The notes under the pieces are model-generated. The model was not told the DNA's origin and searched no databases. It worked only from the letters and a program-made list of their open reading frames with translations. A stretch of 46,559 bases of DNA. It comes from a virus. The stretch lies in UHGV virus genome UHGV-0172001. The stretch is one strand, 5' to 3'. The position numbers were made by a program, and so were the translations under genes. Position 1 is the stretch's first letter. Each line of letters begins with the position of its first letter. Below are positions 20,285-31,722 of this stretch, piece after piece.

Positions 20285-20360
<76 letters not shown>

Positions 20361-20363
20361 TAT

Positions 20364-20439
<76 letters not shown>

Positions 20440-26867: not shown

Positions 26868-27077
26868 ATGATTTATACACATGAGATGCTTTGCGAAGCA
26901 CGTCGGGCGCTGCATGAACTGATGATCGGGCGTGCTGTGGCTTCTGTCAGTAAGAACGGACGGCAGGTACAGTATTCGCGGGCGACGATTAATGAATTAC
27001 GGCGATATATTGAGGAAATTGAAAGTGCGCTTGGAATGTCAGGTCGTCGCCGTGGCCCTGTAGGAGTACGACTGTGA
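26868..27077 (+). CDS. Head-tail joining protein (lambda gpW-like)
   Basis: ARRALHELMIGRAVASVSKNGRQV...RRRGP matches lambda W. Confidence 0.85.
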   Translation: MIYTHEMLCEARRALHELMIGRAVASVSKNGRQVQYSRATINELRRYIEEIESALGMSGRRRGPVGVRL

Positions 27078-28645
27078 GCGGGGGACTGGTGGATCTTCAT
27101 GGGCAACCTCTGCGGCATAGCATGGGATATTCCGGTGGTGGTACCGGATTTGGCGGGCAACTGGCTGAATGGCTGCCTGCACCGGAAAGTGCTGATGTGG
27201 CACTCTTACCTTCCATTCAGCTGGGTAACGCCCGTGCGGATGATCTGGTCCGTAACAACGGTATTGCCGCAAATGCTGTGGAAATTCATAAAGACCATAT
27301 CGTCGGGCACATGTTTCGCCTGAGTTACCGACCCAACTGGCGCTGGCTGGGGATGTCGGAAGCTGATTCGCATGCCTTTATTGAAGATGTTGAGGCGGCG
27401 TGGATGGAATATTGCGATCCGGTGTTTGGTTCGATGGATGTGGAAGGGCGTCGCTCGTTTACCGAATTTATTCGTGAAGGGGTGGGGGTCCATACTTTTA
27501 ACGGTGAAATTTTTGTCCAGCCAGTATGGGATACGGAATCCACGTCATTATTCAGAACAAAATTCAAGACCATCAGTCCGAAGCGCGTCAGCACGCCCGG
27601 TTATGGCATCGGCGATCGTTTTATGCGTGCCGGAGTGGAAATCAACCGTCACGGAAAGGCGATGGCTTATCATGTTCAGGACGATGACTGGCCTGGCTAC
27701 GGTGTCAGCAACTGGACACGGATTGCGGCGACGCTGCCCTCCGGGCGACCGGGAATGATCCATGTGTTTCAGCCGCAGGAGGACGGACAGACGCGCGGGG
27801 CCAACCAGTTTTATTCCGTGATGGAGCGCCTCAAGATGCTCGACACACTACAGGCCACGCAACTGCAGTCGGCGGTGGTGCGGGCGATGTATGCCGCGAC
27901 GATTGAATCCACACTGGATTCGGAAAAAGCATTTGAATATATCGCCGGTGTGGGTGATGGCGGAAAAAATCCCCTGAACACCATCATGAAAGGCTATGCG
28001 CGCTATTACGCCACCAATACGGTAAAGATGGGTGGGGTTCGTATTCCGCATCTTTATCCGGGGGATTCACTGAATCTGCAGACAGCACAGAATGCGGATA
28101 ATGGTTTCTCTGAACTGGAAAAGGCGCTGTTACGTTACATTGCTGCCGGACTGGGCGTGTCCTATGAGCAGCTTTCCCGTGATTATTCACAGGTCAGTTA
28201 TTCCAGTGCCAGGGCATCCGCCAATGAGTCGTGGCGGTATTTTATGGGGAAACGAAAATTTGTGGCCAGCCGACTGGCGTCACAGATGTTTGCCTGCTGG
28301 CTGGAGGAAGCCCTTATTCGCGGTGTGATCCGCCCACCGAAATCCCGTTTCTCATTCTGGGAGGCCCGTTCCGGGTGGTGTCGTGCCGAGTGGATTGGTG
28401 CCGGTCGCATGGCGATTGATGGCCTTAAGGAGGTGCAGGAGGCGGTGATGCGTATTGAAGGTGGCCTGAGCACGTACGAGAAGGAGCTGGCCCTGATGGG
28501 CGATGACTATCAGGAGATTTTCCGCCAGCAACTGCGTGAAAGCCAGGAGCGACAGGCGGCTGGTCTTCCCCGCCCCATCTGGATAAAGGATACGTTTCAG
28601 CAGCAGATCCGACAGACAACGGGAGAAAAAGTCGATGCGTCGTAA
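27074..28645 (+). CDS. Portal protein (lambda gpB-like)
   Basis: GNARADDLVRNNG, LQTAQNADNGFS, LLRYIAAGLGVSYEQLSRDY, GRMAIDGLKEVQEAVM: near-collinear with lambda B. Confidence 0.95.
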   Translation: MSGGLVDLHGQPLRHSMGYSGGGTGFGGQLAEWLPAPESADVALLPSIQLGNARADDLVRNNGIAANAVEIHKDHIVGHMFRLSYRPNWRWLGMSEADSHAFIEDVEAAWMEYCDPVFGSMDVEGRRSFTEFIREGVGVHTFNGEIFVQPVWDTESTSLFRTKFKTISPKRVSTPGYGIGDRFMRAGVEINRHGKAMAYHVQDDDWPGYGVSNWTRIAATLPSGRPGMIHVFQPQEDGQTRGANQFYSVMERLKMLDTLQATQLQSAVVRAMYAATIESTLDSEKAFEYIAGVGDGGKNPLNTIMKGYARYYATNTVKMGGVRIPHLYPGDSLNLQTAQNADNGFSELEKALLRYIAAGLGVSYEQLSRDYSQVSYSSARASANESWRYFMGKRKFVASRLASQMFACWLEEALIRGVIRPPKSRFSFWEARSGWCRAEWIGAGRMAIDGLKEVQEAVMRIEGGLSTYEKELALMGDDYQEIFRQQLRESQERQAAGLPRPIWIKDTFQQQIRQTTGEKVDAS

Positions 28646-30251
28646 TTTATCGCATATTGCCGCCATGGCATTTAATGAACCGCTTTTACTGGAGCCCGCT
28701 TATGCGCGGGTTTTCTTTTGCGCGCTGGGTAAAGAGATGGGGGCCGGCAGCCTTGCCGTTCCTCAGCAGGCTGTTCAGCTTGATGCTGATGGTATGCAAC
28801 TGGCTGTGACTGACTATATGGCGGGCGGTCAGCGCCCGGCAAAGAGTTACCAGGTGAAGAATGGCATCGCCATTCTGCCGGTGAGCGGCACGCTGGTGCA
28901 TAAACTGGGTACCCTGCGCCCTTACTCCGGCATGACAGGCTATGACGGCCTGACTGCCCGTCTTCAGATGGCGGTGAATGATCCGGATGTGCGCGGCATT
29001 TTGCTGGATATCGACAGCCCGGGCGGTCAGGCTGCCGGGGCGTTTGACTGTGCTGACATGATTTACCGCCTGCGGGAACAGAAGCCCGTGTGGGCGCTGT
29101 GTAATGATATGGCCTGTTCAGCCGCCATGTTGCTGGCGGCAGCCTGTACGCGTCGGCTGGTCACGCAGACGGCAAAAATTGGTTCGATTGGTGTGATGAT
29201 GGCGCACACCAGTTACGAGAAACAACTGGCACAGGAAGGGGTGGATATCACGCTGATTTACTCCGGGCAGCACAAGGTTGACGGCAACAGTATTCAGGCA
29301 TTGCCGGCAGGTGTGCGTGCAGATTTTCAGCGCCGTATTGATGAGGCCCGCCGGATGTTTGTCGACAAGGTGGCGCTTTATACGGGGCTGAGTTCAGAGG
29401 CGGTGATGAATACCGAGGCTGCCGTTTATGACGGTCAGGCAGGCATTGATGCAGGCCTGGCTGATCAACTGATTAATGCTGCAGATGCCGTTGAAGTGAT
29501 GGTTTCTGCACTGAATGACTCTGTTACGAAGGAGAATGCAATGACTGTTAAAAATCTCACCGTTGCTGAAGCGGTGGCCCAGGAAAATCAGCGCGTGATG
29601 GGGATCCTGAATTGTCAGGAGGCGAAAGGGCGCGAGCAACTGGCGCAAATGCTGGCAGAACAACCGGGAATGTCGGTTGAGCAGGCGAAAACGTTGCTGG
29701 CAGCTGCGCCGGTTGCCGGTACTGACAGCACGGGGGGGCAGATTATGGCGCTGCCGGAAGCAAAGGGGCGTGAGCAACTGGCACAGATGCTGGCAGGTCA
29801 ACCGGGAATGACGGTGGAGCAGGCGAAAGCGTTTCTGGCAGCAGCCCCTGCTGCCAGTGCTGCAGGCACAGGCGATAAGATTATGGCGTTGCCGGAAGCT
29901 AAAGGGCGTGAACAACTCGCGCAGGCGCTGGCTGAACAGCCGGGAATGACCGTTGACCAGGCAAAAACGTTACTGGCAGCGGCACCGGTTGCCTGTTCTG
30001 CAAGTGTCGGCGAGCAGATTATGGCGCTGCCGGAGGCGAAAGGGCGCGAGCAACTTGCACAGGCACTGGCAGAACAACCGGGAATGACAGTGGCGCAGGC
30101 AAAAACGTTGCTGGCAGCCGCGCCGACGGCATCGCAGCCGTCACAGGAAACACTTTTTGATCGCTTTATGGCACAGCATGCTGCCAGTGCGGTTTCCGGT
30201 GGTGGAGCTGCCGGGCACGGAGAAGAAGATCTGCTGATGAGTATGCCGTAA
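28635..30251 (+). CDS. Head maturation protease / scaffold (lambda gpC with Nu3-equivalent region), with an expanded repeat domain
   Basis: HIAAMAFNEPLLLEPAYARVFFCAL, PYSGMTGYDGL, GVMMAHTSY match lambda C; C-terminal part contains four 46-aa tandem repeats. Confidence 0.9.
   Translation: MRRNLSHIAAMAFNEPLLLEPAYARVFFCALGKEMGAGSLAVPQQAVQLDADGMQLAVTDYMAGGQRPAKSYQVKNGIAILPVSGTLVHKLGTLRPYSGMTGYDGLTARLQMAVNDPDVRGILLDIDSPGGQAAGAFDCADMIYRLREQKPVWALCNDMACSAAMLLAAACTRRLVTQTAKIGSIGVMMAHTSYEKQLAQEGVDITLIYSGQHKVDGNSIQALPAGVRADFQRRIDEARRMFVDKVALYTGLSSEAVMNTEAAVYDGQAGIDAGLADQLINAADAVEVMVSALNDSVTKENAMTVKNLTVAEAVAQENQRVMGILNCQEAKGREQLAQMLAEQPGMSVEQAKTLLAAAPVAGTDSTGGQIMALPEAKGREQLAQMLAGQPGMTVEQAKAFLAAAPAASAAGTGDKIMALPEAKGREQLAQALAEQPGMTVDQAKTLLAAAPVACSASVGEQIMALPEAKGREQLAQALAEQPGMTVAQAKTLLAAAPTASQPSQETLFDRFMAQHAASAVSGGGAAGHGEEDLLMSMP
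29607..30160 (+). repeat. Four tandem 138-bp in-frame repeats within the protease/scaffold gene
   Basis: Units starting near 29607, 29745, 29883 and 30021, each encoding ALPEAKGREQLAQxLAEQPGMTVxQAKxLLAAAP... Confidence 0.85.
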
Positions 30252-30288
30252 GCGTTATCCGTGATTCAGATAAATCAGGAGACTGAAA

Positions 30289-30624
30289 ATGATTAAAACA
30301 ACCACAGAAAAGCGCGCGGATGTGCATATTTTTGCCGGAAGCGATCCGGCGCATACCGCAACAGCCACCAGTGGTATCAGTGCTGCCACGCCCGCACTGA
30401 CGCCGCTGATGCTGGATGACGCCACCGGCAAACTGGTGGCATGGGATGGTCAGAAAGCAGGAACGGCAGTGGGCGTGCTGGCTCTGGCGCTTGCCGGAAC
30501 AGAACCCACGCTGACGTACTACAAAAGCGGTACATTTGCCACTGAGTCGCTGGTCTGGCCTGATTCTGTGGATGCGGTGAAAAAAGCCAACGCATTTGTG
30601 GGAAGTGCCATCAGCCACGCCTGA
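30289..30624 (+). CDS. Head decoration protein (lambda gpD-like)
   Basis: [29 protein letters not shown] match lambda D. Confidence 0.9.
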
Positions 30625-30693
30625 TGGTGAAGTGATTGACTGAAAAAACGGGTCGCGATGCGGCCCGTTTGTGTTTCTGAAGGAAAATAAATT

Positions 30694-31722
30694 ATGGGGT
30701 TATTTACCACGCGTCAGTTACTCGGGTACACCGAGCAGAAAGTGAAATTTCGTGCGCTGTTTCTGGAGCTGTTCTTTCGTCGCACGATCACTTTCCATAC
30801 TCAGGAAGTCATGCTGGATAAAATTACCGGCAAAACACCGGTTGCGGCGTATGTGTCTCCGGTGGTGTCAGGCAAAGTGCTGCGCAGCCGTGGTGGTGAA
30901 ACCCGCGTGTTACGTCCCGGTTATGTAAAACCAAAACACCGCTTTGATTATCAGCAGGCAGTGGAACGTCTTCCGGGGGAAGATCCGGCCCGTCTTAATG
31001 ACCCGGCCTACCGCCGCCTGCGTATTCTGACTGACAACCTGAAGCAGGAAGAGCAGGCGATTGTACAGGTGGAAGAAATGCAGGCGGTCAGTGCCGTTCT
31101 GCAGGGTAAGTACACCATGAGCGGGGAACAGTTTGAGACGGTGGAAGTGGATTTTGGGCGCTCTGCCACCAATAACATTACGCAGGCTGGCGGCAACAGA
31201 TGGTCACAGCAGAATGCTGACACCTTTGATCCAACGCACGATCTGGATGCGTACTGTGATTTTGCCTCCGGGACCATCAATATCGCGATTATGGATGGCA
31301 CAGTCTGGCGTATGCTGAATGGCTTTAAGCTTTTCCGTGAAAAACTGGATACCCGTCGTGGTTCAAAATCGGAACTGGAAACCGCGCTGAAAGACCTGGG
31401 CTCCGTAGTCTCTTTTAAGGGTTATTACGGTGATCTGGCTATTGTGGTGGCGAAAACCGCTTACGTCGATGAAAACGGGGATGAACAGCGTTATCTGCCG
31501 GAAGGCACACTGATTCTGGGGAACACTCAGGCGGAAGGCGTCCGTTGCTATGGGGCCATTCAGGATAACCAGGCGCTGAGTGAAGGGATCACCTCTGCAA
31601 TTCGTTATCCAAAACACTGGCTGGAGGTGGGTGATCCTGGTTGCGAATATACCATGACGCAGTCTGCGCCGTTGATGGTGTTGCCGGATCCTGACGCGTT
31701 TGTGGTGGTTCAGGTGAAATAA
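30694..31722 (+). CDS. Major capsid protein (lambda gpE-like)
   Basis: YVSPVVSGKVLRSRGG, PGYVKPKH, DPAYRR, VEEMQAVSAVLQGKYTM, KLDTRRGSKSELETA, MTQSAPLMVL match lambda E. Confidence 0.95.
   Translation: MGLFTTRQLLGYTEQKVKFRALFLELFFRRTITFHTQEVMLDKITGKTPVAAYVSPVVSGKVLRSRGGETRVLRPGYVKPKHRFDYQQAVERLPGEDPARLNDPAYRRLRILTDNLKQEEQAIVQVEEMQAVSAVLQGKYTMSGEQFETVEVDFGRSATNNITQAGGNRWSQQNADTFDPTHDLDAYCDFASGTINIAIMDGTVWRMLNGFKLFREKLDTRRGSKSELETALKDLGSVVSFKGYYGDLAIVVAKTAYVDENGDEQRYLPEGTLILGNTQAEGVRCYGAIQDNQALSEGITSAIRYPKHWLEVGDPGCEYTMTQSAPLMVLPDPDAFVVVQVK

What the first reader, a model, noticed from the sequence alone, without database searches (positions are those of the whole stretch)
29607..30160. Four tandem 138-bp in-frame repeats expanding the head protease/scaffold gene
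The lambda gpC/Nu3-equivalent ORF is 538 aa versus 439 aa in lambda because its scaffold-region carries four consecutive 46-aa units (ALPEAKGREQLAQ.LAEQPGMTV.QAK.LLAAAP...). Tandem repeats like this are recombinationally unstable and may vary in copy number between isolates, with possible consequences for scaffold length or assembly.
Basis: seen in the sequence. Interest (0 to 1): 0.5.

Follow-up and report, generated by a model that had tools for sequence, protein, structure and literature searches.

The report
Four-copy scaffold module in phage head gene
The head protease/scaffold gene of this E. coli prophage really does carry four in-frame 46-residue repeats, but they are an old, selectively maintained four-copy version of the 'Tri box' triplication already annotated in phage 21, so the finding is real and largely ordinary.

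Summary
Four tandem 138-bp units (29604-30155) lie in frame in the 538-aa lambda gpC-like S49 protease/scaffold ORF (28635-30251). Each unit is a conserved 36-aa core plus a variable linker of about 10 aa.

This is not a new kind of feature. The same module occurs once in lambda, N15 and phi80. It occurs three times in phage 21, where GenBank M81255.1 annotates the copies as Tri1/Tri/Tri3 boxes inside the nested scaffold gene 6. A few E. coli prophages have five copies.

The copies are old and constrained. Core dS between units is 0.5-1.0 and dN/dS is 0.02-0.30. The longest identical in-register run is 9-24 nt. About 97 of 106 complete E. coli genomes that carry this lineage have exactly four copies, so an assembly artefact is excluded and the array is not hypervariable.

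Copy number has still changed on evolutionary timescales. There are two different 5-copy alleles and a chimeric 3-copy allele, and units have been homogenised in some lineages.

A conserved SD+ATG at 29529-29543 supports a nested 236-aa Nu3-like scaffold protein. AlphaFold2 predicts each core as a small helical module joined by disordered linkers.

The most likely function is a multivalent scaffold/targeting domain shared by the scaffold and the protease. That function is inferred, not shown.

The parts
27074..28645 (+). Lambda-family portal protein gene (context; overlaps the start of the protease gene by 11 nt)
   Evidence: Pfam PF05136 Phage_portal_2, E=9.2e-95.
28635..30251 (+). gpC-like head maturation protease/scaffold ORF, 538 aa
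   Evidence: ORF listed. Pfam PF01343 Peptidase_S49, E=1.5e-33. PHROG 53 'head maturation protease', E=3.8e-218. It is 60% identical over its full length to phage 21 gp5.
29070..29504 (+). S49 (SppA-like) peptidase domain, residues 146-290; Ser162 and Lys214 align with lambda gpC Ser166 and Lys218
   Evidence: Pfam match coordinates. Both residues are invariant in a 32-sequence alignment. Motif comparison with lambda and phage 21.
29529..29534 (+). Shine-Dalgarno-like AAGGAG, 6 nt upstream of the internal ATG
   Evidence: Read in the sequence. An SD-like element is kept at the same place in relatives although it encodes different residues there: K-E, Q-E or G-G.
29541..30251 (+). Nested in-frame Nu3/gp6-like scaffold ORF, 236 aa (codon 303 to stop)
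   Evidence: The ATG is in frame (28635+906). It is homologous to the annotated start of phage 21 gene 6 (M81255.1, OL657228.1). Standalone proteins that start at this Met appear in the databases, e.g. P0005, P0009 and P0010. Expression was not tested.
29604..29741 (+). Repeat unit 1 (residues 324-369): core ILNCQEAKGREQLAQMLAEQPGMSVEQAKTLLAAAP plus linker VAGTDSTGGQ
   Evidence: HMM hit E=8e-28. Positional orthologue of phage 21 Tri1, 28 of 36 identical.
29742..29879 (+). Repeat unit 2 (residues 370-415)
29880..30017 (+). Repeat unit 3 (residues 416-461)
30018..30155 (+). Repeat unit 4 (residues 462-507). Its core is 35/36 identical to unit 3, and its 'linker' runs into the unique C-terminal tail.
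30126..30248 (+). Unique C-terminal tail (residues 498-538, ...LFDRFMAQH...EEDLLMSMP), conserved with phage 21 and lambda C-termini
   Evidence: Comparison of C-termini. AF2 predicts a helix at about residues 504-515 and low confidence after it.
30289..30624 (+). gpD-like head decoration protein gene (context)
   Evidence: Pfam PF02924, E=2e-23.
30694..31722 (+). gpE-like major capsid protein gene (context; presumed partner of the scaffold)
   Evidence: Pfam PF03864, E=1.4e-65. It is 83% identical to the phage 21 MCP and 98% to the MCP of the 5-unit STEC005 prophage.

Best explanation
The repeats are a four-copy tandem array of the conserved Nu3-type scaffold module. They lie in the C-terminal scaffold region of a lambda-type nested gene pair.

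Two products are expected. One is the full-length 538-aa S49 protease carrying the scaffold region as a tail. The other is a 236-aa scaffold protein started at the internal SD+ATG at 29541.

Each 36-aa core folds into a small helical module: a short helix followed by a helix-loop-helix. The cores are joined by flexible Ala/Ser/Gly/Thr linkers of about 10 aa, like beads on a string.

By analogy with lambda Nu3/gpC, the array sits inside the procapsid and contacts the major capsid protein and/or other scaffold and portal subunits. It carries the protease in with it and is then degraded. Four copies would make each chain multivalent.

The array arose by duplication of a module that is single in most relatives. 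It changes slowly by unequal crossing-over and gene conversion.

Shown here by computation: gene identity, repeat anatomy, purifying selection on every core, the conserved internal start signal, predicted helical modules, and the copy-number distribution. Inferred and not tested: expression of the nested product, what the module binds, and any effect of copy number on assembly.
For: - **Gene identity and context.** S49 domain, lambda-family portal, gpD, gpE and FI. PHROG scaffold and protease families hit the C-terminal region in four separate stretches.
- **Homology of the module.** An HMM built from the window's units finds one copy in lambda gpC (364-399, E=2.6e-16), N15, phi80 and mEp237. 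It finds three in phage 21, PhiR12_1 and Gifsy-1. The phage 21 hits coincide with the annotated Tri1/Tri/Tri3 boxes inside gene 6.
- **Single copy is the rule.** A profile search of 1.84 billion representative proteins found 405 clusters. Among the 139 newly retrieved of the best 150, 125 have one copy, 11 have two and 3 have three. In long proteins the single unit lies a median of 50 residues from the C-terminus.
- **Selection acts on the protein.** For the cores, dS is 0.5-1.0 and dN/dS is 0.02-0.30. In the linkers pN is about equal to pS.
- **Internal start.** An SD-like element (AAGGAG, CAGGAG or AGGAGG) plus ATG lies 14 codons before the QENQRVMGI motif in the window, phage 21 and Gifsy-1 lineages, although the SD encodes different residues in each.
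- **Structure.** In the AF2 scaffold-only model, units 1, 3 and 4 score about pLDDT 86-94, unit 2 about 65-76, one linker falls below 50, and pTM is 0.31. In the full-length model, units score 70-82 and linkers below 50.
- **Partners known for lambda Nu3.** Nu3-E and Nu3-Nu3 interactions were seen by yeast two-hybrid, and Nu3-C and Nu3-B interactions are listed from the earlier literature (PMC3224144).
- **Evolution by recombination.** P0140's unit 2 is a chimera of EC11-type units 2 and 3. STEC005 and P0111 carry different extra units. P0146, P0151 and P0153 have homogenised units and linkers.
Against: - No experiment or solved structure shows what this module binds. There is no PDB sequence match and no significant Foldseek match. 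No Pfam or NCBIfam family covers it.
- The major capsid protein is 98% identical between the 4-copy and 5-copy prophages, and 83% identical to that of 3-copy phage 21. Copy number is therefore not visibly coupled to the capsid protein and may be nearly neutral.
- From my own recollection of the literature, which I could not access here, lambda Nu3 was reported as largely intrinsically disordered in solution. That sits uneasily with confidently folded modules.
- The AF2 models rest on shallow alignments of 26-32 sequences.
Confidence: 0.75

Rival explanations
1. Assembly artefact: the four copies result from collapsed or duplicated reads and do not exist in the real genome.
For: Tandem repeats do break short-read assemblies. 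Many database homologues are 'partial' S49 peptidases on contigs of 0.4-2 kb that end in the array. At least one chimeric protein exists, P0152, which is fused to a baseplate protein.
Against: The copies differ at 22-33% of bases, largely at synonymous sites. An artefactual duplication would give identical copies. The identical four-unit architecture is found in roughly 97 complete E. coli genomes from many laboratories and in 38 protein clusters of 535-544 aa, including 33 of exactly 538 aa. These clusters come from E. coli, E. marmotae, E. albertii, Citrobacter and Salmonella.
Confidence: 0.01
2. Hypervariable contingency-type repeat: a recent, recombinationally unstable array whose copy number differs freely between isolates and tunes assembly.
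For: Copy number does differ within the lineage, at 3, 4 or 5. There are two independent 5-copy alleles (STEC005 type, and P0111/P0133 with short linkers), one chimeric 3-copy allele (P0140, 196 member sequences), and locally homogenised units that are 93-94% identical at nucleotide level.
Against: In the window the units are only 67-78% identical, with dS of 0.5-1.0. The longest in-register identical runs are 9-24 nt. From general knowledge, this is at or below the roughly 23-27 bp needed for efficient RecA-dependent recombination in E. coli. Relatives from 97% down to 86% identity keep four units. All nine 5-copy complete genomes carry one 100% identical allele, which points to a single event.
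Confidence: 0.1
3. The repeat functions at the DNA or RNA level (protein-binding sites, iterons, a structured RNA or internal translation starts) and the coding periodicity is incidental.
For: The phage 21 genome record OL657228.1 marks two CII-consensus pattern matches on the minus strand in this part of the gene. Each unit contains in-frame ATG codons. One of them, ATT ATG at 29742-29747, is preceded by a G-rich run.
Against: Conservation follows the protein, not the nucleotides. Between cores, 28-35 of 36 residues are identical, but only 55-76% of the matching residues use the same codon, and dN/dS is far below 1. Promoter-like and terminator-like matches in 28400-30800 are no more frequent than in shuffled sequence, and none lies in the array. 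The antisense ORF 29394-29915 is itself a product of the repeat and has no support.
Confidence: 0.03
4. The array is a passive spacer or ruler of low-complexity, largely disordered sequence. Only its length matters, for example the radial reach of the protease or the volume filled inside the procapsid.
For: The sequence is Ala/Gln/Glu-rich and the linkers evolve freely. From my own recollection, lambda Nu3 was reported as intrinsically disordered. Copy number varies without visible change in the capsid protein.
Against: A pure spacer would not keep 28-35 of 36 residues identical across copies at dS near 1. It would also not keep the same motif (EAKGRE...PGMTV..A...LAAAP) from Enterobacterales to Bradyrhizobium phages. 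AF2 gives the cores moderate to high confidence in both models.
Confidence: 0.1

Closest known systems
Phage 21 genes 5/6 with 'Tri1 box / Tri box / Tri3 box' repeats (GenBank M81255.1, 'Bacteriophage 21 head gene operon'; also OL657228.1)
   Same: Same gene (60% identity over the full length; protease domain 74%). Same nested internal start. Same 36-aa module in tandem with a period of about 46-50 aa, in frame, at the same place in the scaffold region. Unit 1 is the positional orthologue of Tri1, with 28 of 36 residues identical.
   Different: The window has four copies instead of three. Its units 2-4 resemble each other (31-35 of 36) far more than they resemble Tri2 or Tri3 (21-23 of 36), so they were re-duplicated or homogenised after the split. 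In phage 21 and Gifsy-1 the three units have diverged independently, and positional orthology is kept for all three. The host phage here has a P2-type contractile tail.
Bacteriophage lambda gpC / gpNu3 nested protease-scaffold genes
   Same: S49 protease with Ser/Lys at equivalent positions. The C-terminal scaffold region is shared with an internally initiated scaffold protein. Gene order is portal, C/Nu3, D, E, FI. The module is present at lambda residues 364-399.
   Different: Lambda has a single module and a longer linker of about 60 aa, rich in Thr, Ser, Ala and Asp, ahead of it. Its annotated internal start lies much further upstream relative to the module.
P22 gp8 scaffolding protein, C-terminal helix-turn-helix coat-binding domain (and the phi29 gp7 HTH)
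   Same: Functional analogy only. A small helix-turn-helix element of a scaffolding protein binds the capsid protein N-arm inside the procapsid (abstracts and text of 10.1101/2022.12.13.520362 and PMC11922011). The predicted shape of each unit here is a helix-loop-helix.
   Different: No sequence or fold match was detected. P22 has one HTH per chain and gains valency by oligomerisation. Here valency would come from tandem copies in one chain. P22 has no fused protease.

Membership tests
Lambda-type gpC/Nu3 head protease-scaffold nested gene | S49 (SppA-like) serine peptidase domain | tested here: met
   Pfam PF01343, E=1.5e-33, 116 bits against a cutoff of 24.9, residues 146-290. PHROG 53, E=3.8e-218.
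Lambda-type gpC/Nu3 head protease-scaffold nested gene | Conserved catalytic Ser and Lys equivalent to those of lambda gpC | tested here: met
   Ser162 and Lys214 are invariant in the 32-sequence alignment and align with lambda Ser166 and Lys218. That these residues are catalytic comes from my knowledge of S49 peptidases and lambda gpC. It was not tested here.
Lambda-type gpC/Nu3 head protease-scaffold nested gene | Position in a lambda-type head operon: portal, then protease/scaffold, decoration protein, major capsid protein and FI | tested here: met
   PF05136, PF02924, PF03864 and PF14000 on the flanking ORFs, in that order.
Lambda-type gpC/Nu3 head protease-scaffold nested gene | C-terminal region homologous to the Nu3 scaffold | tested here: met
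   The unit HMM hits lambda gpC 364-399 at E=2.6e-16. PHROG 8399 'head scaffolding protein' scores E=6.9e-53. The C-terminal tail motif (LFDRFM / LDRLM ... LL..P) is shared.
Lambda-type gpC/Nu3 head protease-scaffold nested gene | Internal in-frame translation start that yields a separate scaffold protein | tested here: inconclusive
   The sequence signal is present and conserved: AAGGAG at 29529-29534 and ATG at 29541, at the same position as the annotated phage 21 gene 6 start. Actual initiation cannot be shown with these tools.
Lambda-type gpC/Nu3 head protease-scaffold nested gene | Scaffold and protease are incorporated into the procapsid and removed by proteolysis | not testable with these tools
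   This needs procapsid biochemistry.
Phage 21-type 'Tri box' tandem array in the scaffold gene | Three or more in-frame tandem copies of the Nu3 module within the nested scaffold ORF | tested here: met
   Four copies at residues 324-359, 370-405, 416-451 and 462-497, all downstream of the internal start. The phage 21 HMM hits coincide with the annotated Tri boxes.
Phage 21-type 'Tri box' tandem array in the scaffold gene | Common descent with the phage 21 array (positional orthology of units) | tested here: inconclusive
   Unit 1 is closest to Tri1 (28 of 36). Units 2-4 are closer to one another than to Tri2 or Tri3. They may be homogenised descendants or later duplications.
P22-type helix-turn-helix coat-binding scaffold domain | Sequence or fold similarity to the P22 gp8 C-terminal HTH | tested here: not met
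   No PDB sequence hit at E<=0.1. The best Foldseek hit against the PDB has E=3. The analogy is functional only.

The most novel reading that the evidence does not exclude
Copy number of the module (1, 2, 3, 4 or 5 in natural phages) sets the valency of the scaffold/protease-targeting domain and measurably tunes procapsid nucleation, fidelity or protease loading. The strong conservation of every copy together with synonymous divergence would then reflect selection both for identical binding modules and against recombinational loss. If so, the lambda / phage 21 / this prophage / STEC005 series, whose capsid proteins are 83-98% identical to the window's among the 3- to 5-copy members (an N15-type one-copy phage, mEp237, is 58%; lambda's own was not measured), would be a ready-made natural titration of scaffold valency.
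Probability: 0.25. Interest if true: 0.5.

Novelty: new member of a known kind. Interest (0 to 1): 0.25.

Why it matters
The finding mainly matters for annotation. The array is real, protein-coding and selectively maintained. It explains why this 'S49 family peptidase' is 538 aa long, and why so many database entries for this gene are truncated at contig ends.

It also documents something the curated family libraries lack. The Nu3 scaffold module is a discrete, widespread unit of about 36 aa, found in 405 clusters at 50% identity. It has no Pfam or NCBIfam model and no solved structure. It is usually single but has been amplified to 2-5 copies in some lineages.

If copy number affects assembly, these phages offer a natural series for studying scaffold valency. 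The lambda scaffold-capsid interface is still not structurally defined.

Tried and rejected
- **Scaffold-only database search.** It returned mostly fragments, because repeat-derived words saturated the candidate list. It was useful only for showing that assemblies break in the array, and for short standalone scaffold sequences.
- **Solved structures and curated families.** No meaningful PDB sequence hit (best E=0.21, YopN). No significant Foldseek hit against the PDB for the scaffold model (best E=3). No NCBIfam or Pfam family for the module. The weak Pfam matches (Bac_DNA_binding, DUF732, Casein and others) are below or at threshold, with no significant individual domain, and I treat them as compositional noise.
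- **Literature.** Searches for the phage 21 Tri boxes or for scaffold tandem repeats found nothing relevant in the held library. One search was rejected as malformed. The lambda gpNu3 biophysics paper (PMC3247018) is not held. The claim that the feature is 'known' therefore rests on the GenBank annotation of M81255.1.
- **DNA-level signals.** The promoter and terminator scan shows nothing in the array.
- **Capsid size.** I considered a link between capsid size and copy number. Capsid proteins are 341-342 aa in the relatives whose gene I read in full, whether one-, three-, four- or five-copy. From the record lengths, 3-copy phages range from 43 to 54 kb. There is no sign of a link, but I did not test this rigorously.
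- **Species-representative genomes.** Among the best 80 loci there was no 4-copy example. Many of these loci are probably lambda DNA contamination.
Full report
**Observation.**
Tandem Repeats Finder reports one array at 29618-30125 with period 138, 3.7 copies, 80% matches and score 590, plus a 276-bp alternative. It lies inside a single uninterrupted ORF, 28635-30251, of 538 aa. In the protein register, the anchor EAKGREQLAQ recurs at residues 329, 375, 421 and 467. This gives four 46-aa units at 29604-29741, 29742-29879, 29880-30017 and 30018-30155. Self-identity at lag 138 is 74%. In 2000 codon shuffles the best lag averaged 37% and never exceeded 43%.

**Anatomy.**
Each unit has a 36-aa core, I[LM][NA][CL][QP]EAKGREQLAQxLAxQPGMxVxQAKxxLAAAP, followed by a variable linker of about 10 aa rich in Ala, Ser, Gly and Thr.

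- Cores share 28-35 of 36 residues, but only 55-76% of the matching residues use the same codon.
- Nei-Gojobori estimates between cores give dS of 0.5-1.0 and dN/dS of 0.02-0.30. In the linkers pN is about equal to pS.
- The longest identical in-register run between any two units is 9-24 nt.

The copies are therefore old. Each core is under strong purifying selection at the protein level, and the linkers are nearly free to vary.

**The gene and its surroundings.**
The ORF has an S49 peptidase domain (PF01343, E=1.5e-33, residues 146-290). It matches PHROG 53 'head maturation protease' at E=3.8e-218.

- Upstream is a lambda-family portal gene. Downstream are gpD-like, gpE-like and FI-like genes.
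- Ser162 and Lys214 are invariant among 32 homologues and align with lambda gpC Ser166 and Lys218.
- The window is collinear with a prophage at ydfJ in E. coli strain 401651. That prophage combines this lambda-type head module with a P2-type contractile tail.

**Internal start.**
AAGGAG at 29529-29534 is followed after 6 nt by an in-frame ATG at 29541 (codon 303). This would give a 236-aa product made of a 21-aa leader, the four units and a 41-aa tail. An SD-like element plus ATG lies at the homologous position, 14 codons before the QENQRVMGI motif, in several relatives:

- close relatives of the window use CAGGAG;
- phage 21 and PhiR12_1 use AGGAGG;
- Gifsy-1 uses AGGAGG.

The hexamer encodes K-E, Q-E or G-G in these different lineages. 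That argues for selection on the nucleotide signal itself. In phage 21 this is the annotated RBS and start of gene 6, the scaffold gene. Whether the start is used here cannot be shown with these tools.

**What the repeat is.**
An HMM built only from the window's four cores gave these counts:

| Phage or prophage | Copies |
|---|---|
| lambda gpC (364-399, E=2.6e-16), N15, phi80, mEp237 | 1 |
| phage 21, PhiR12_1, Gifsy-1 | 3 |
| window, Ec401651, EC11, OkiPb01676 | 4 |
| STEC005 prophage (584 aa) | 5 |

The three phage 21 hits coincide with the repeat_region features 'Tri1 box', 'Tri box' and 'Tri3 box' ('function unknown; putative') in GenBank M81255.1, inside gene 6. Tandem amplification of this Nu3 module is therefore a previously recorded feature of lambdoid head genes. 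The window carries a four-copy form of it.

**How common multi-copy arrays are.**
- A profile of the four units, searched against 1.84 billion representative proteins, found 405 clusters at E<=0.001.
- Among the 139 newly retrieved of the best 150, 125 have one copy, 11 have two and 3 have three. In 56 of the 59 proteins of at least 380 aa, a single unit lies a median of 50 residues from the C-terminus.
- In loci from one genome per species, about 50 have one copy and five have three: E. coli, Shigella, Trabulsiella, E. albertii and Providencia. None of the 80 loci kept had four.
- Standalone scaffold proteins of Bradyrhizobium carry two copies, which looks like an independent duplication.
- Among the 120 closest full-length homologues, 77 have three units (492-516 aa), 38 have four (535-544 aa) and 3 have five. 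The remaining two are an aberrant 610-aa chimera and a 743-aa protein with one unit.

**Stability and change.**
The region occurs in 106 of 5426 complete E. coli genomes. In a 60-row spread from 97% down to 86% identity, every full-length match spans 842-852 bp for the 851-bp query, which means four units. Nine STEC genomes carry one 100% identical five-unit allele. One of them, STEC316, also holds a four-unit prophage. This rules out an assembly artefact and shows that the array is not hypervariable.

The array has nevertheless been remodelled over evolutionary time:

- STEC005 units 2 and 3 are 94% identical at nucleotide level, and three of its linkers are identical.
- P0111 and P0133 have a different extra unit with a 7-aa linker.
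- Unit 2 of the 3-unit P0140 combines the first half of an EC11-type unit 2 with the second half and linker of unit 3. This is the expected product of an unequal crossover.
- P0146, P0151 and P0153 show units and linkers homogenised within a gene.

In phage 21 and Gifsy-1 the three units keep positional orthology (26, 28 and 22 of 36) and differ strongly within each gene (17-22 of 36). In the window only unit 1 keeps orthology with Tri1 (28 of 36). Units 2-4 resemble each other at 31-35 of 36.

**Structure.**
AlphaFold2 was run twice.

- Full-length protein (32-sequence alignment): mean pLDDT 65. The protease core is folded, each unit scores about 70-82, and the linkers fall below 50.
- Scaffold region alone (26 sequences): mean pLDDT 77 and pTM 0.31. 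Units 1, 3 and 4 score about 86-94.

Each unit is predicted as a short helix, a turn at EAKG, a helix (REQLAQxL), a loop (AEQPGMT) and a further helix (VxQAKxLLAA). There is no confident arrangement between units. No solved structure matches by sequence or by fold. Neither Pfam nor NCBIfam has a model for the module.

**Mechanism (inferred).**
By homology with lambda C/Nu3 and phage 21 genes 5/6, the gene should give two products. One is a scaffold protein, and the other is a protease that carries the same scaffold region and is therefore co-assembled into the procapsid. For lambda, Nu3-E and Nu3-Nu3 interactions were seen by yeast two-hybrid, and Nu3-C and Nu3-B interactions are listed from earlier work (PMC3224144).

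The module is the best-conserved part of the scaffold region across all relatives. This makes it the likeliest interaction element. Four copies on flexible linkers would make each chain multivalent. The comparison with the helix-turn-helix coat-binding element of the P22 and phi29 scaffolds is a functional analogy only.

There is evidence against a strict role for copy number. The capsid protein is 98% identical between the four-unit and five-unit prophages and 83% identical to that of three-unit phage 21.

**Verdict.**
The instability argument is overstated for this array, but it is valid for the family over evolutionary time. The feature is another member of a kind already annotated in phage 21, not a new kind of element. 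Interest is low to moderate. Its value lies in annotation, in defining an uncurated scaffold module, and in offering a natural copy-number series for assembly studies.

Noticed in passing
window 24026-46252 (and the whole window): The prophage is a mosaic. It has a lambda-type head module (terminase, portal, S49 protease, gpD, gpE, FI) joined to a P2-type contractile tail (baseplate V/W/J/I, sheath, tube, gpX, gpD-like late control protein). It is collinear at 87-97% identity with a prophage at ydfJ in E. coli 401651.
   Followed up: partly
window 20285-20438: Two adjacent phage-borne tRNA genes: tRNA-Thr(tgt) at 20285-20360 and tRNA-Gly(tcc) at 20364-20438. They lie upstream of the lysis and head genes. 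The related E. coli 401651 prophage has only tRNA-Gly annotated there.
   Followed up: no
window 30646-30670: A strong terminator-like hairpin (11-bp stem, 7 G-C pairs, T-rich tail) lies between the decoration-protein and major-capsid-protein genes. Rho-independent terminators are annotated at the same position in N15 and mEp237. It may be a conserved attenuator that sets the D:E expression ratio.
   Followed up: no
L020, L023-L030, L027, L043-L044, L050-L053, L056-L060 (genome-contig scan): Lambda-type gpC loci with uniform match statistics to the query sit on short or low-coverage contigs. The contigs are assigned to unrelated taxa (Neobacillus, Chromatium, Kitasatospora, Shewanella, Pseudomonas, Oceanobacillus, Leeuwenhoekiella, an Akkermansia MAG, Enterococcus, Veillonella). 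This is almost certainly lambda DNA contamination of those assemblies.
   Followed up: no
P0154 (657 aa, E. coli): A phage 21-type protease/scaffold protein with a 156-aa internal duplication. The duplicated segment covers the end of the protease domain, the internal-start region, Tri1 and Tri2. It is either a larger unequal-crossover product or a misassembly.
   Followed up: no
P0152 (610 aa), and the many 'partial' S49 peptidases: Short-read assemblies frequently break or mis-join inside the array. P0152 stops in unit 3 and continues as a 'baseplate assembly protein V'. Dozens of database clusters are fragments on contigs of 0.4-2 kb.
   Followed up: partly
P0075, P0079, P0081, P0083, P0084, P0087-P0090 (Bradyrhizobium and relatives): Standalone scaffold proteins of about 160-225 aa in alphaproteobacterial prophages carry two copies of the same module. 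This indicates independent amplification outside the Enterobacterales.
   Followed up: no
NZ_CP041431.1 (E. coli STEC316), 2069663-2070514 and 4821316-4822316: One genome holds two related prophages, one with the four-unit allele and one with the five-unit allele. This gives an opportunity for inter-prophage recombination in the array.
   Followed up: no
window 29394-29915, minus strand: A 173-aa antisense ORF spans the array and is itself repetitive. It has no independent support and is most likely a by-product of the GC-rich repeat.
   Followed up: no
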